NCBI GenBank assembly: GCA_964106915.2
Contig: OZ066917.1
Source: Podarcis gaigeae
Taxonomy: Eukaryota
Reading direction: 5' to 3' (one strand)
Length of the DNA: 64,000 nucleotides
Below, in pieces: positions 40,401-43,843 of this stretch (position 1 is its first letter; every line of letters begins with the position of its first letter). Made by a program: the position numbers.

Positions 40401-43400
40401 TAACTAAAACAAAAAAAATAAGTTGACCCTGAAAAGACATGTTTTCAGAAGAACAATAAATTTCCAAAATATTAATGAACTTAAGATGTAAGATCAATTT
40501 TTGTCTCTCTAAAAAAGAAGTCAACCTGAAATACTCAATTTCCCCAGATTACTATATTAAAATTGGCATTTAAAAATTGTTCAAGACTAAAAAGAAGACA
40601 GCTGAAGAACAAAATAATTTTCAGAAACAACCCAGATGTGAAGATGTTTCTCCCAAAATGACAAGGTATAGAACTTATGGTCCATTTTCAGATGGGATAC
40701 CTACTGGTGGACTGCCAAACCACATCAAGCACTGTTAACTAGAAGCAATAGGATTTGGTTCTAAATACTGTAAGTAACTTTAAGATCAAGGTGCTATTTA
40801 GTTTAGAATAAACTTTTTAGGGCTCCAGTTGTAACCACACTTAACTGGGAATAAGCCCCACTGAGTAAGATTTCACTCCTGTGCACGGCATGGTTTAGGA
40901 TTATGCTGTAAGTCATTTTGAAAATCTATATATATAACCAGCAAGATTCTAGGCTTACTATACTGTAAAGTGGCAAGAATTAGAAGGGTGGGAGAATGCA
41001 AAGACAGTGTCAATGAACTTGTATAAAAGCCTAATAGCATATTCTTCTACAAGATGTAGACACACAGGGAACAATCTGCCCACTGCACATGTAGTGCTCA
41101 CATAGAGAAGACTGCCATAGGCTCAGAACCGTATTTCTCCCCTCGTCTACAGAAATACATGTGTGAACACAAATGCACAAATGGGATAGTAAGGGGAATC
41201 AAAGGCGCATGTCTGCCTCCTATATCCCCATCTGGCACTTTGTTTTCTGTCAATGTAACTCAGCATGAGAAACATGTATTGGGGCAAAAAAAATGGTTGG
41301 ATGGGATAAGGGAGGTGTGCACAGACCATTAATTCCATATTTGCATTGTCCCAGTATGTGAGGGAGAGAGTGAGAATGGAGACAGGGCTCTACTGAGCCT
41401 TTGGGAATACTCTGTGTGAAGACATAGCGTCCATGGTCTGGATCCCACACTTTGTTTTTATTTTTGCTACTATTATGTACTTACTTGGGAGAATTTCTTG
41501 GAACTATGTTTTATTTGTATCAAATGAAATTAATTGATTCTCAGTATGGTTTGTAAAGCTATGGAAACAAACCAGTTAGATGCTGGAGAATTCCCTTGCT
41601 GTGTGCACAGTATTATTTAAAGAAAAATAGTCAACAAATAAAATAAGTAATATTCACTAACATGTAGTCTGTAAAGTAACGGTTATAGAAAACAATGAAC
41701 TCTAAGCTCATGCAGAAATTCTAAGAATATGTAACACACCACAATTTCACTATTTTTGTTCTTTAATACTAAGATCAAGTGGAATTTGACTTTTGGCTGC
41801 ATAACTGGTGAAATTTAAGTTTTCAAGAACTTATTTCCACCCAAAACTAAAACTAAATGCAAAAACTAAAAGCAAAAACTAAATGTTTCCAGCAACTCTG
41901 TTCCTGACAAACTGGCGAATAAACGGCTTCAAAAATGAATTTATCAGTGATGTACACAATAAAATTAACTGTGCAAAAGTGCAAAAAAAAAAAGACTATT
42001 TAGCATTAAAGGGGAAAATCTACCACATGGTGTATGCATAGTCTAGATGTCAAGAGTAACTTGCATATAAATTCAGGAGCCTGTTATTTCTTCACACTTA
42101 CACATATTGTGTACGTTTACAGAGAAAGCATTTCCTTTCGATATATTTATATTGCTGCAGACATTGGGACATACTTTTGTTATATATACCTGAAGGCATC
42201 TACTGAGTTGTGCTTATTTTAGTAAACTCTGGGTATTTTTCTCCCCTACAGCAAGCTCATATAGTTATTTGCTCATTAAAACAACTTAAATCGTACTGCA
42301 GAGCCAATATACACTATAGTTTTGCCCCATGACACTGTGAAAAATGTTGGTTCTTCCTTTCTAGTGCAGATAAAGTTGAAACAATGCTTTTGAACTGTGC
42401 TAAAAACTAACAGTTCACATGGATTTAACATGGCTGTGGACAAAGTTAAAAGCCCCTCTCATCTGATGCCAGGTGATCATGTATCAGCAATGGCCAAGAA
42501 CTACTTTTAATCATCTGCATCTGGCACAGAAACTGTGACCATTTTGGATAAAGAGTTTCCTATAAGATTCTAGATTTGTTCTTTTGTCCTCTCAACGTTT
42601 CACAGGAACATGAATGAAAAATATACTAATAACGTTTTTGATAAGTGATGATAGATGAGCTAAGGCTGGGCCAGAAAAAATGCAGCTTGCCTGCCAATCA
42701 AATTTCTGTCTTGTGCTTTAGAACTTACACTCCATGGCTGCCTATGGGGTTGCAGATGATAAAGGTACTACTGTCACTTGAAGCAGCCCTAAATGAAGTG
42801 GTGCATTTGAAAGGTCATTCCACATCTGCTGTATGGTACTAAGCCTGCGATCTTGTGGGGATAAACCCCAGCGAACTCTGTGAGACTTATTTCTGTGTAG
42901 AAATGTATAGGATTGTACTCTTAAGTAAAGACCCCTTACCTCCAATCAGAATATCATATCTGAAAGTGACAGAAATTTTAGATTTTTACTATTAAAGTGA
43001 TGGTGGTGAATTAGTTAGCCACCATCTTCTAAATCATGAACACTTCTAAATTTTAAAATGAATATACCAATTATACATGGCCATGAACTATAGTTAGTTC
43101 AGTCTTAGTCACATAAAATAGTGACTGAAGAAACATGATGAACACATAGTATCTGTATGTGTGTGTATATATATATCTATATATGCAGGTTTTGGTGTCC
43201 TCGGGTGTCTTCCCGTGTAAAAGTTGGGGTGTCTAGGCGACGTTTCGACGAGGTCTCACTCGTCATCTTCAGGCTGGTGCTTTCGGCTTCTTGTTACTGG
43301 AACAGAGCGGGATCTCAATGTTTGAGTTCCTATAAATACTGTAGAGGGGGTGTGGTGTCTAGCCTCCAATGTTCTGGGCAGAGAGGAAGTTCCCAGGCTA

Positions 43401-43802
43401 GTGTGCCTTTTCTTCTTTTGTTCCTTAATTACTTGAGAGATACCTTGAGTGATTTCTTGAGTGATATCCTGAGTACCACTTAGGATATCACTCAAGAAAT
43501 CACTCAAGGTATCTCTCAAGTAATTAAGGAACAAAAGAAGAAAAGGCACACTAGCCTGGGAACTTCCTCTCTGCCCAGAACATTGGAGGCTAGACACCAC
43601 ACCCCCTCTACAGTATTTATAGGAACTCAAACATTGAGATCCCGCTCTGTTCCAGTAACAAGAAGCCGAAAGCACCAGCCTGAAGATGACGAGTGAGACC
43701 TCGTCGAAACGTCGCCTAGACACCCCAACTTTTACACGGGAAGACACCCGAGGACACCAAAACCTGCATTCCTGTACCCGTGAAAATCTACGAAAGCAAA
43801 TA

Positions 43803-43843
<41 letters not shown>

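What the first reader, a model, noticed from the sequence alone, without database searches (positions are those of the whole stretch)
43183..43804. 587-bp near-perfect palindrome made of two inverted Penelope-like ends inside an NBEA intron
Seen: two 288-bp arms (43183-43470, 43482-43769) are reverse complements. The 11-nt spacer itself pairs (gagt-acc-actt), so the whole unit can fold back with a 3-nt loop. Only the right arm has a ~35-nt tail, and both sides are (TA)n. Known: Penelope-like elements often insert with an inverted pseudo-LTR and a short unpaired 3' tail. Inference: this is a very recent insertion. NBEA pre-mRNA passing through it would form ~290 bp of dsRNA (a possible ADAR, Dicer or dsRNA-sensor substrate), and the DNA could extrude a cruciform.
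Basis: partly seen in the sequence, partly recalled or inferred. Interest (0 to 1): 0.75.

Follow-up and report, generated by a model that had tools for sequence, protein, structure and literature searches.

The report
Twin inverted Penelope retrotransposon insertion
The 587-bp palindrome is real in the sequence and is one young insertion of a Penelope-like retrotransposon, made of two head-to-head copies of the element's terminal repeat; this is a known way for these elements to insert, so it is a clean example rather than a new kind of thing.

Summary
The arms 43183-43474 and 43478-43769 match at 291 of 292 positions, with a 3-nt loop. A 30-nt tail lies on the right side only, and a 12-bp duplication (ATATCTATATAT) flanks the whole unit inside a (TA)n microsatellite.

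The Penelope-like (PLE) reading is supported by tests that do not depend on each other:
- Each arm carries a minimal hammerhead ribozyme with the PLE-specific traits.
- The ribozyme overlaps an ATG that opens a 38-codon reading frame. That frame is 62-70% identical to the N-termini of two proteins, one of them from a rattlesnake, and these lead to several hundred reverse-transcriptase proteins, including the Anolis Poseidon element.
- The tail encodes codons 29-38. The two outer ends (+84 and +114 of the ORF) align with the two reverse-transcription start sites mapped in vitro for Anolis Poseidon.

The unit lies about 11.7 kb upstream, in transcript sense, of a neurobeachin PH-BEACH exon on the minus strand, so it is intronic.

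Best mechanism, which is inferred: both target strands were nicked and each primed reverse transcription at a different start site.

Not testable here: long-read confirmation, a genome-wide survey of copies, and any dsRNA consequence.

Verdict: a new member of a known kind, of modest interest.

The parts
43173..43184 (.). Left copy of the 12-bp target-site duplication ATATCTATATAT. Its last 2 nt (AT) also pair in the palindrome, so the junction is ambiguous by 2 nt.
   Evidence: Read directly. The same 12-mer, with the same C interrupting the TA run, recurs at 43800-43811.
43183..43474 (-). Left arm: an antisense copy of the PLE terminal repeat. It spans about 208 nt upstream of the ATG plus the first 84 nt of the ORF, and it has no tail.
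   Evidence: 291 of 292 complementary to the right arm. In one search, tblastn aligns residues 1-28 of P0002 to 43266-43183.
43475..43477 (.). 3-nt loop (ACC) at the head-to-head junction. The only arm mismatch (43471 against 43481) lies 4 nt from it.
43478..43769 (+). Right arm: the sense copy of the same terminal repeat.
43770..43799 (+). The 30-nt tail, present on the right side only. It encodes ORF codons 29-38 in frame.
   Evidence: In one search, residues 1-40 of P0002 align to 43686-43805 at 70% identity. maps residues 29-38 onto the relatives.
43800..43811 (.). Right copy of the target-site duplication. Its first 3-6 nt (ATA, perhaps ATATCT) may equally be element sequence or microhomology, because relatives continue with Ile (and Ser in P0002) after Gln38.
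43678..43715 (+). Minimal hammerhead motif, sense copy. Helix I is 2 bp (43678-79 with 43714-15). CUGAAGA is at 43680-86, followed by an extra U at 43687. Helix II is GACGAG (43688-93) paired with CUCGUC (43700-05), with a 6-nt loop. GAAA is at 43706-09 and C-GUC at 43710-13. The predicted cut lies after 43713.
   Evidence: Descriptor scan: 2 sites in the window, against 0.005 per simulated window. The features were compared.
43237..43274 (-). Mirror copy of the minimal hammerhead motif in the left arm.
   Evidence: site at 43272 on the - strand.
43686..43799 (+). Start of the PLE ORF, 38 codons. The ATG is made of hammerhead position A9, the extra U and G10.1.
43432..43474 (+). 12-nt tandem repeat (about 3.6 units) at the inner end of the left arm. 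The palindrome centre sits inside this array.
43487..43524 (+). Mirror 12-nt tandem repeat (about 3.2 units) at the inner end of the right arm.
31364..31500 (-). Context: a neurobeachin exon encoding the start of the PH-BEACH domain, bounded by an AG acceptor and a GT donor. It places NBEA on the minus strand.
   Evidence: 45 of 48 residues identical to PDB 1mi1 (Neurobeachin), E 1.8e-20, better than LRBA 1t77. PH_BEACH at 25.5 bits, below the 27.5 cut-off because only part of the domain is present; splice sites read by eye.
27817..28893 (+). Context: an intronless MAB21L1 gene.
   Evidence: Mab-21 at 150 bits and Mab-21_C at 103 bits. PDB 5eog, 'Protein mab-21-like 1', 827 bits.

Best explanation
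One retrotransposition event of an endonuclease-bearing Penelope-like element of the Penelope/Poseidon type put two head-to-head copies of the element's terminal repeat (pLTR) into a (TA)n microsatellite in an NBEA intron. No ORF body came with them.

Shown by the sequence:
- The arms are near identical and carry a PLE-type minimal hammerhead.
- The hammerhead overlaps the start codon of a PLE ORF.
- One arm ends at ORF position +84 and the other at +114. The extra 30 nt are the 'tail'.
- A 12-bp target duplication flanks the unit.

Inferred mechanism:
1. The element's endonuclease nicked both target strands 12 bp apart.
2. The bottom-strand 3' end primed reverse transcription at the distal internal start site (about +114). 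A few nt of microhomology may have helped.
3. The top-strand 3' end primed at the proximal start site (about +84).
4. Both cDNAs ran to the same 5' point of the template, inside a 12-nt tandem repeat.
5. One polymerase then jumped onto the other cDNA and copied it. This joined the two halves round a 3-nt filler.

The copy has no ORF body and cannot move by itself. The two hammerheads lie on opposite strands. In any read-through transcript both would be locked in a 291-bp duplex, so self-cleavage is not expected. Any NBEA pre-mRNA crossing the site can form that duplex.
For: Anatomy:
- 291 of 292 arm positions are complementary, with a 3-nt loop.
- The tail is 43770-43799.
- The 12-mer ATATCTATATAT lies on both sides.

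Hammerhead:
- The descriptor is CUGANGA, then 0 or 1 extra nt, then a helix II of at least 4 bp closed by G10.1-C11.1, then GAAA.
- It hits 2 sites in the 64-kb window, and both are in the arms.
- Only 1 of 200 simulated windows had any site.
- That paper also reports pairs of such motifs on opposite strands, 100-700 bp apart.

Overlap of ORF and ribozyme, as in Anolis Poseidon (PAc):
- Here the ATG is A9, the extra U and G10.1, and the cut is 25 nt past the start codon.

Homology:
- The 38-aa peptive start matches P0002 at 70% identity, E 5.7e-6 (1 hit among 2 candidates). The same protein scores E 1e-4 in the 1.84-billion-protein library.
- It matches the Crotalus adamanteus protein P0004 at 24 of 39 residues, pairwise E 1e-11.
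- P0002 finds P0004 at E 8.5e-64.
- P0004 finds 471 proteins at E <= 1e-3 among 3000 candidates. Of the 120 listed, 118 carry PF00078.
- A local Pfam scan finds RVT_1 in 5 of 5 proteins scanned, and a sub-threshold GIY-YIG match in 1 of 5.
- P0004 holds the ADKG block that Craig 2021 names as a PLE diagnostic.
- P0018 (Anolis LOC134299269) has, by my reading, the N-terminus encoded by the PAc template printed.

Outer ends:
- Our Q38 aligns to residue 39 of P0018 (nt 117), and our H28 aligns to residue 29 (nt 87).
- PAc starts reverse transcription at nt 111-118 and at a second nearby site. Its tail is the stretch between the two sites.
- PAc cleaves and extends both strands and prefers AT-rich targets.

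Known PLE anatomy:
- An inverted copy joined head to head.
- A 30-40 bp tail at one end only.
- TSDs of 8-10 bp.
- pLTRs that include the first codons of the ORF.

Youth: CpG observed/expected is 0.65 in the element against 0.20 and 0.27 in the flanks. Other dispersed repeats in the window are 76-88% alike.
Against: - No Rfam hammerhead family matched. That holds at gathering score (1 match in the window, a tRNA-like one), at E <= 1 on the region (22 matches, none a hammerhead), and at E <= 10 on one arm (7 matches, none a hammerhead).
- Helix I is only 2 bp, against 4-5 bp in most min-HHRs.
- The hammerhead descriptor was written after I had seen the motif.
- The link to RT and GIY-YIG proteins is a chain through two intermediates. 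The 38-aa peptide has no significant direct match to any full-length ORF.
- GIY-YIG itself was seen only weakly in the local scan: 19.8 bits against a cut-off of 22.6, in 1 of 5 proteins. Among the accession numbers attached to the hits, it appeared in 2 of 120.
- The window holds no second copy and no PLE ORF. Of the 123 fetched proteins, only P0002 and one other gave tblastn hits, and all 3 hits lie in the arms. Family membership in this genome is therefore untested.
- The TSD lies in a TA run. Its only informative letter is the C, and the right-hand ATATCT could be element sequence.
- Twin priming does not by itself explain why both arms stop at the same nucleotide.
- The authors report that initiation needs no homology to the target, whereas a 3-6 nt match is possible here.
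- Arm identity can be kept up by gene conversion, so it does not date the event.
- The assembly is unverified, and PLE structures are known to trouble assemblies.
Confidence: 0.85

Rival explanations
1. Same element, different joining mechanism. A single cDNA folded back on itself (self-priming or snap-back) and was copied. This is the interpretation Arkhipova et al. 2013 prefer for palindromic head-to-head PLE junctions.
For: - Both arms end at the same nucleotide round a 3-nt loop. Snap-back gives that automatically.
- The junction sits in a 12-nt tandem repeat that offers microhomology.
- quotes the self-priming interpretation and reports palindromes at the 5' ends of pLTRs.
Against: - A cDNA that copies itself back should carry the same outer end on both arms. 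Here only one arm has the 30-nt tail.
- The tail-less arm stops where the second start site of PAc aligns.
- PAc extends both target strands in vitro.
Confidence: 0.2
2. Assembly artefact. Only one arm exists (a single pLTR-length insertion with a tail), and the inverted copy was created by a fold-back read or by mis-joining.
For: - Craig et al. 2021 state that PLE tandem and inverted structures often cause assembly problems.
- Near-perfect identity and a tiny spacer are also what chimeric fold-back reads produce (recalled).
- No reads could be examined.
Against: - The tail-less arm abuts unique left flank that carries the matching 12-bp duplication.
- The palindrome stops exactly at the position homologous to a known RT start site, not at an arbitrary point.
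- The structure equals the commonest natural PLE arrangement.
- One mismatch near the centre is not expected from a pure fold-back copy.
Confidence: 0.07
3. The unit belongs to a non-autonomous family derived from pLTRs, a relative of the non-LTR retrozymes that is moved in trans by a PLE. It would then not be a truncated copy of an autonomous element.
For: - The copy consists only of pLTR plus ORF start.
- pLTR sequences suffice for trans-mobilisation in rotifers.
- Vertebrate retrozymes are reported to be related to pLTRs, and were found in 4 of 5 reptile genomes sampled.
Against: - There is no head-to-tail tandem arrangement, which defines retrozymes.
- The 38 codons are still open and 62-70% identical to ORF starts of protein-coding relatives.
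- The two readings cannot be separated without other copies.
Confidence: 0.25
4. A foldback or MITE-type DNA transposon with long terminal inverted repeats, unrelated to PLEs.
For: - Long inverted arms.
- An AT-rich target with a short duplication.
Against: - The arms hold a PLE hammerhead and the start of a PLE ORF.
- The ends are asymmetric by 30 nt, and those 30 nt continue the ORF.
- No duplication directly flanks the two arm ends.
Confidence: 0.02

Closest known systems
Poseidon_Ac (PAc), the Anolis carolinensis PLE studied in vitro by Frangieh et al. 2024 (PMC11167929; I read parts 1-2 of 4 and some passages)
   Same: - The hammerhead has the same layout: CUGANGA, an extra U, helix II, GAAAC, GUC.
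- The ATG is formed by A9, the extra U and G10.1.
- The cut lies about 25-26 nt past the start codon.
- Insertion ends fall at two internal sites about 30 nt apart, near codons 29 and 39.
- The tail is the stretch between those sites.
- Both target strands are used.
- The target is AT-rich.
   Different: - It is a different family. Over the 38 aa, the window peptide has no significant direct match to the Anolis protein P0018; the link runs through P0002 and P0004.
- A possible 3-6 nt microhomology sits at the right junction, whereas the paper reports no homology to the cleaved DNA.
- This copy has no ORF body.
- I could not see figures S1 and S2, which show the genomic ends.
Pen2a_Av and related Adineta vaga Penelope copies (Arkhipova et al. 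2013, PMC3846280; passages only)
   Same: - An inverted pLTR is joined head to head.
- A 31-bp tail sits on one of the inverted pLTRs.
- The pLTR includes the first codons of the ORF, and the tail extends them.
- TSDs are short (8-10 bp).
- Palindromes occur at the inverted junction.
   Different: - Those copies keep an ORF between pLTRs.
- Their pLTRs are 181-218 bp, against 292 bp here.
- Their pLTR holds 12 codons, or 22 with the tail, against 28 and 38 here.
- The TSD here is 12 bp.
Minimal hammerheads of metazoan PLEs (Cervera and De la Pena 2014, PMC4209133; I read parts 1-2 of 4)
   Same: - Both catalytic boxes are present.
[quoted passage not shown]
- Helix II is long (6 bp).
- Helix III is absent and ACGU is palindromic, which implies a dimeric active form.
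- The paper reports opposite-strand pairs 100-700 bp apart, and finds such motifs in turtle and snakes.
   Different: - Helix I is only 2 bp, as in the D. virilis variant, rather than 4-5 bp.
- Activity is untested.
- I could not see the reptile alignments, which are in closed supplements.
L1 twin priming
   Same: Both target strands prime reverse transcription in one event and yield inverted segments.
   Different: L1 twin priming inverts adjacent, non-overlapping parts of one RNA. Here both halves copy the same segment, from two defined internal start sites.
Non-LTR retrozymes (Li, Clavereau and Pollet 2026 preprint, doi 10.64898/2026.07.22.740005; abstract and Results part 1)
   Same: Both are short, non-coding in effect, carry a hammerhead, are related to pLTRs, and depend on PLEs.
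   Different: Retrozymes are head-to-tail tandems bounded by ribozyme cut sites. This unit is an inverted pair bounded by RT start sites.

Membership tests
Insertion of an endonuclease-bearing Penelope-like element (Penelope/Poseidon type) | Sequence homology to an element whose ORF has a PLE reverse transcriptase and a GIY-YIG endonuclease | tested here: met
   The link is indirect. The 38-aa ORF start matches P0002 (70%) and the Crotalus protein P0004 (24 of 39, E 1e-11). P0004 then finds 471 relatives, and 118 of the 120 listed carry PF00078. Local Pfam finds RVT_1 in 5 of 5 scanned. GIY-YIG is seen only weakly: 1 of 5 in the local scan, and 2 of 120 among the accession numbers attached to the hits. 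P0004 holds the ADKG block.
Insertion of an endonuclease-bearing Penelope-like element (Penelope/Poseidon type) | Hammerhead ribozyme motif inside the terminal repeat (pLTR) | tested here: met
   2 sites, one per arm, against 1 of 200 simulated windows with any site. Criteria taken.
Insertion of an endonuclease-bearing Penelope-like element (Penelope/Poseidon type) | A 30-40 bp tail at one end only, contiguous with the element sequence | tested here: met
   The 30 nt at 43770-43799 occur on the right only. They encode ORF residues 29-38, matched by P0002 and P0004.
Insertion of an endonuclease-bearing Penelope-like element (Penelope/Poseidon type) | An adjacent inverted copy joined head to head | tested here: met
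   described as frequent.
Insertion of an endonuclease-bearing Penelope-like element (Penelope/Poseidon type) | A short target-site duplication around the whole unit | tested here: met
   A 12-bp ATATCTATATAT lies on both sides. Caveat: the context is a TA run, and the first 3-6 nt of the right-hand copy could belong to the element.
Insertion of an endonuclease-bearing Penelope-like element (Penelope/Poseidon type) | Outer ends at the family's reverse-transcription start sites | tested here: met
   The ends at +84 and +114 align to nt 87 and 117 of the Anolis protein P0018. PAc starts at nt 111-118 and at a second nearby site, and its tail lies between them.
Insertion of an endonuclease-bearing Penelope-like element (Penelope/Poseidon type) | Other copies of the same family in the same genome | not testable with these tools
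   The window has no second copy. No eukaryotic genome or repeat library was available.
Autonomous, full-length PLE copy | Its own RT-EN open reading frame | tested here: not met
   Only codons 1-38 are present. tblastn with 123 PLE-related proteins hits nothing else in the window. This copy is a pLTR-only fragment.
PLE minimal hammerhead (Cervera and De la Pena 2014) | [quoted passage not shown] | tested here: met
   Read at 43680-43713 and scanned. Helix II also forms in the fold of the single arm.
PLE minimal hammerhead (Cervera and De la Pena 2014) | Helix I of 4-5 bp | tested here: inconclusive
   Only 2 contiguous pairs are present (43678-79 with 43714-15). The paper accepts a 2-bp helix I in the D. 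virilis variant.
PLE minimal hammerhead (Cervera and De la Pena 2014) | Self-cleavage | not testable with these tools
   This needs an in vitro assay. PAc cleaves only with protein present.
Rfam hammerhead families (canonical types) | A covariance-model score at or near the gathering score | tested here: not met
   No hammerhead match. This is expected for motifs without helix III.
Non-LTR retrozyme | Head-to-tail tandem repeats of a hammerhead-bearing unit | tested here: not met
   There is no direct repeat of the unit. The two copies are inverted.
microRNA precursor families (MIR7996, mir-1890, mir-36 and others) | A score at the gathering threshold, with sequence similarity beyond mere pairing | tested here: not met
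   The best match is MIR7996 at 108 bits against 119. The alignments match almost only through paired columns of a perfect hairpin.
Foldback or MITE DNA transposon | Symmetric terminal inverted repeats directly flanked by the duplication | tested here: not met
   The 30-nt ORF-coding tail lies between the right arm and the duplication.

The most novel reading that the evidence does not exclude
The locus may be a fossil of a symmetric insertion by a dimeric PLE ribonucleoprotein.

- In one event the two target strands were primed at the two different internal start sites. Short target-RNA microhomology may have guided the priming: AT on the left, and ATA up to ATATCT on the right.
- Both cDNAs ran off at a defined 5' end of a short RNA that starts within the pLTR. 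The 292-nt arms would then be complete pLTRs, not random truncations.
- Template jumping between the two cDNAs made the near-perfect palindrome.

If this is general, tailed and tail-less ends should be paired one of each at such insertions, and the inner end should be the same in all copies. That would connect the in vitro findings (two start sites, both strands extended, a predicted dimer) to the long-unexplained inverted pLTR architecture. In the paper text I read, that connection is not drawn: a search of PMC11167929 for 'inverted' found only the inverted-dT blocking group.
Probability: 0.35. Interest if true: 0.5.

Novelty: new member of a known kind. Interest (0 to 1): 0.3.

Why it matters
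For annotation, this is a Penelope-like insertion and should be masked as one. It is not a gene, not a microRNA and not a structural oddity of NBEA.

For people who study PLEs, it is an unusually clean, undecayed copy from a family other than the Anolis model. Its two outer ends fall where the in vitro reverse-transcription start sites align. It therefore supports the in vitro picture in vivo, and it offers a concrete test of how inverted pLTRs arise.

For the host, it places a 291-bp near-perfect duplex-forming sequence with a 3-nt loop in the intron of a large neuronal gene. That could serve as a natural case for studying RNA editing, small-RNA production or palindrome instability in a reptile genome. 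None of this is shown here, and such insertions are probably common in genomes rich in PLEs.

Tried and rejected
Rfam:
- A scan of the whole window at gathering score gave only a tRNA-like match at 323-391.
- The region at E <= 1 gave 22 matches. All are sub-threshold, and most are microRNA models that match any long perfect hairpin. None is a hammerhead.
- One arm at E <= 10 gave 7 matches, none a hammerhead. I rejected the microRNA matches as hairpin artefacts.

Other copies in the window:
- blastn with word size 7 found nothing better than 34 nt at 76%, E 0.2.
- tblastn with 123 fetched proteins found only the arms.

Protein searches:
- The representative-library search gave 2 hits.
- The better-scoring one, P0003, is an 830-aa protein made of a short repeated unit with a meaningless Pfam match. 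I rejected it as spurious.
- Pfam on the 42-aa peptide, on P0002 and on P0004 gave no family at E <= 0.01. The accession numbers PF28514 and PF26215 attached to the hits were not reported by the local Pfam copy, so I cannot name them.

Folding: the single arm shows no global structure (z = 0.38; 62 of 100 shuffles fold at least as well).

Literature: a search for Penelope inverted repeats as sources of siRNA or hairpin RNA gave 10 papers, none on point judging by their listings.

Not done:
- The scan of prokaryotic genome contigs and the phage, plasmid and E. coli collections were not used, because they cannot hold this element.
- No complex prediction and no structure prediction were run, because no claim needs them.

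
Full report
OBSERVATION

The palindrome is there as described. The repeat finder reports arms 43183-43474 and 43478-43769, 292 nt each, with 3 nt between them. blastn of the right arm against the window gives 99.658% over 292, which is 291 of 292. A self-comparison of the window gives 587 nt at 99.148%.

The one mismatch is 43471 against 43481, four nucleotides from the loop ACC. On the + strand the mismatch is a G.T wobble. On the - strand it is an A/C pair that stays open in the predicted fold.

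The one-sided tail is 43770-43799, which is 30 nt. TRF finds (TA)9.5 on the left and (AT)19 on the right.

Chance is excluded:
- The window holds only one other inverted repeat of 40 nt or more within 3 kb, with 57-nt arms at 88%.
- The 639-nt RNA folds at -604.7 kcal/mol against -182.3 +/- 7.3 for 20 shuffles.
- The DNA strand folds at -392 kcal/mol.

INSERTION BOUNDARIES

The 12-mer ATATCTATATAT lies at 43173-43184 and again at 43800-43811. Both flanks are TA runs, so most of this match is uninformative. The C that interrupts the run at the same offset on both sides is the telling letter.

Removing 43185-43811 would leave a simple (TG)n(TA)n...(TA)n(TG)n site. The inserted unit is then, in order: an inverted arm, a 3-nt loop, a direct arm and the tail.

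WHAT THE ARMS ARE

Hammerhead. On the + strand of the right arm, and mirrored on the - strand of the left arm, lies a minimal hammerhead:
- CUGAAGA at 43680-86;
- one extra U at 43687;
- a 6-bp helix II, GACGAG with CUCGUC, closed by G10.1-C11.1;
- GAAA;
- then C-GUC with no helix III, so that A15.1-C-G-U16.1 reads ACGU, a palindrome.

A descriptor for the two catalytic boxes and helix II finds 2 sites in the window, one per arm. Only 1 of 200 first-order Markov simulations of the window had any site. I wrote the descriptor after seeing the motif.

No Rfam hammerhead family matches. That agrees with the absence of helix III.

Cervera and De la Pena 2014 (I read parts 1-2 of 4) define this kind of motif as typical of PLE terminal repeats. 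Among the traits they say argue against chance are:
- the G10.1-C11.1 pair;
- the palindromic 15.2-16.2.

They also describe a long helix II, report pairs of motifs on opposite strands 100-700 bp apart, and find such motifs in turtle and snakes. Helix I here has only 2 pairs, as in their D. virilis variant.

ORF start. The ATG formed by A9, the extra U and G10.1 (43686-88) opens a frame that runs through the arm and the tail for 38 codons. Frangieh et al. 2024 (parts 1-2 of 4 and passages) describe the same overlap in the Anolis Poseidon element PAc. [quoted passage not shown] Here the cut site is 25 nt after the start codon.

Protein homology:
- The peptide finds P0002, an unnamed 189-aa record, at 70% identity and E 5.7e-6. 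It was 1 hit among 2 candidates. The same protein scores E 1e-4 in the search of 1.84 billion representatives. The other hit of that search, P0003, is a repeat protein that I reject.
- The peptide matches a Crotalus adamanteus hypothetical protein, P0004, at 24 of 39 residues, pairwise E 1e-11.
- P0002 and P0004 are 65% identical, E 8.5e-64.
- P0004 runs on into the ADKG block that Craig et al. 2021 call a PLE diagnostic.
- P0004 finds 471 proteins at E <= 1e-3 among 3000 candidates. Of the 120 listed, 118 carry PF00078 and 2 carry PF01541.
- In a local Pfam scan of 5 of them, RVT_1 was found in 5 of 5. A GIY-YIG match below the cut-off was found in 1 of 5.
- One of the 120 is Anolis LOC134299269 (P0018). 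By my reading, its N-terminus is the one encoded by the PAc template printed in the methods of PMC11167929. I made that comparison by eye, not with a tool.

The link from the arm to an RT-EN element is therefore a chain through two intermediates. The 38 residues have no significant direct match to a full-length ORF.

THE TAIL AND THE TWO ENDS

tblastn places residues 1-40 of P0002 on 43686-43805, but only residues 1-28 on the left arm (43266-43183). The tail is therefore element sequence: it is codons 29-38.

In an alignment of N-termini, our H28 and Q38 fall on residues 29 and 39 of the Anolis protein, that is, nt 87 and 117 of its ORF. For PAc, reverse transcription starts at two adjacent internal sites. 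The main one lies 111-118 nt into the ORF, and the genomic tail is the stretch between the two. The two outer ends of this insertion thus fall at positions homologous to the two start sites of a different PLE family.

Craig et al. 2021 (passages) and Arkhipova et al. 2013 (passages) describe:
- an inverted copy joined head to head;
- a 30-40 bp tail at one end only;
- TSDs of 8-10 bp;
- pLTRs that include the first codons of the ORF;
- a bias towards microsatellites.

All of these are seen here.

MECHANISM

Shown: the anatomy above.

Inferred: both strands of the target were nicked 12 bp apart. The bottom strand primed at about +114 and the top strand at about +84. After both cDNAs reached the same inner point, one was copied from the other.

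Support comes from PAc, which cleaves and extends both strands in vitro and is predicted to be a dimer.

A pure snap-back of one cDNA, the reading preferred, explains the shared inner end. It predicts the same outer end on both arms, which is not what is seen. Twin priming explains the unequal outer ends but needs a reason for the shared inner end. The simplest reason is a defined 5' end of the template, or a strong stop in the 12-nt tandem repeat at 43432-43474 and 43487-43524.

Every relative has Ile or Leu after the residue that aligns with Q38, and P0002 has Ile-Ser. The first 3-6 nt of the right-hand duplication could therefore be element sequence or target-RNA microhomology. The right boundary is uncertain by that much.

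AGE

- The arms match at 291 of 292 positions, and the one difference sits at the junction.
- The element keeps 11 CpGs, with observed/expected 0.65, against 0.20 and 0.27 in the flanks and 0.41 in the window.
- Other dispersed repeats in the window are 76-88% alike.

This fits a young insertion. With a neutral rate near 1e-9 per site per year (recalled, rough), zero differences in 288 paired sites would put it within a few million years. Gene conversion between arms could keep them alike for longer.

CONTEXT

- The stop-to-stop ORF 31307-31639 on the - strand holds an exon at about 31364-31500, with an AG acceptor and a GT donor.
- Its product is 45 of 48 identical to the start of the neurobeachin PH-BEACH structure 1mi1, and less similar to LRBA 1t77. 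Pfam PH_BEACH scores 25.5 bits, under the 27.5 cut-off, because only part of the domain is present.
- MAB21L1 lies at about 27817-28893 on the + strand.
- NBEA is therefore read from high to low coordinates, and the palindrome lies about 11.7 kb upstream of this exon.
- More than two thousand NBEA codons must be encoded further upstream (recalled domain order), so the site is intronic.
- I searched this one exon alone.

I do not take the window for human. It holds a young PLE, its NBEA exon differs from the human structure sequence at 3 of 48 residues, and PLEs are reported absent from mammals. The closest protein relatives of the element that carry a species name are squamate.

CONSEQUENCES

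A transcript through the site on either strand can form the 291-bp duplex. The two hammerheads lie on opposite strands and would be buried in that duplex, so cleavage is not expected. Editing, dicing, sensing by dsRNA receptors and cruciform extrusion are reasonable possibilities from general knowledge, but nothing here tests them.

WHAT STAYED UNCHECKED

- Reads.
- Dfam or Repbase.
- Other copies in this genome, and orthologous sites.
- The closed metagenome and viral contig collections.
- The supplementary files of PMC4209133 (reptile hammerhead alignments) and of PMC11167929 (genomic ends of PAc, figures S1-S2). These could sharpen or weaken the comparison of ends.
- The two N runs at 2013-2144 and 2969-3140, which were left as they are.

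VERDICT

The finding is a new member of a known kind. Confidence in the PLE twin-insertion reading is 0.85, and interest is 0.3.

Noticed in passing
window 43797-43805: The right junction reads CAA|ATATCT. All nine aligned PLE relatives have Ile or Leu after the residue aligned to Q38, and P0002 has Ile-Ser. So 3-6 nt of the apparent target duplication match what the element RNA probably encodes at its reverse-transcription start site. That would be microhomology priming, which the in vitro study of PAc did not see.
   Followed up: partly
window 43432-43474 and 43487-43524: The inner ends of both arms are a 12-nt tandem repeat (about 3.2-3.6 units, consensus CTTGAGTGATAC on the left). The head-to-head junction lies inside it. 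It could be a pause or a template-switch site.
   Followed up: partly
window 48973-49108: This is a second, much older hairpin-forming inverted repeat, with 57-nt arms at 88% and a 22-nt spacer. It looks like a MITE. It was not identified.
   Followed up: no
window 3843-3928: A short palindrome of about 86 nt at 88.6% appears in the self-comparison.
   Followed up: no
window 323-391, with 339-476 and 35043-35178: Rfam gives a tRNA match just above its gathering score (31.5 against 29 bits), with a broken acceptor stem. ARAGORN finds no tRNA in the window. The stretch is 78% similar, in inverted orientation, to 35043-35178. It is probably the head of a tRNA-derived SINE.
   Followed up: partly
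window 14980-15259 and 55827-56106: Two same-strand copies of a dispersed repeat, 282 nt at 87.6%, lie next to A-rich runs. A further family has copies at 8223-8444, 18345-18589 and 63370-63534, at 77-87%. They were not classified.
   Followed up: no
window 35369-35830 (+): A 154-codon open frame resembles, from memory only, the C-terminal end of a BovB/RTE-type LINE ORF. Pfam found no family for it.
   Followed up: partly
window about 24600-34000 and 38000-39700: GC-rich stretches with many long spurious ORFs on both strands surround MAB21L1 and lie upstream of the NBEA exon. They are probably CpG islands or conserved non-coding sequence of the nested gene pair.
   Followed up: no
window 2013-2144 and 2969-3140: Two runs of N, 132 and 172 nt long.
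   Followed up: no
proteins P0001, P0002, P0004, residues 1-10: The three N-termini share M-T-x-x-T-S-S-K. In the window, these codons are the ones that spell helix II and the GAAA box of the hammerhead. The peptide start and the ribozyme may therefore constrain each other. The DNA of the two relatives was not available to test for covariation.
   Followed up: no
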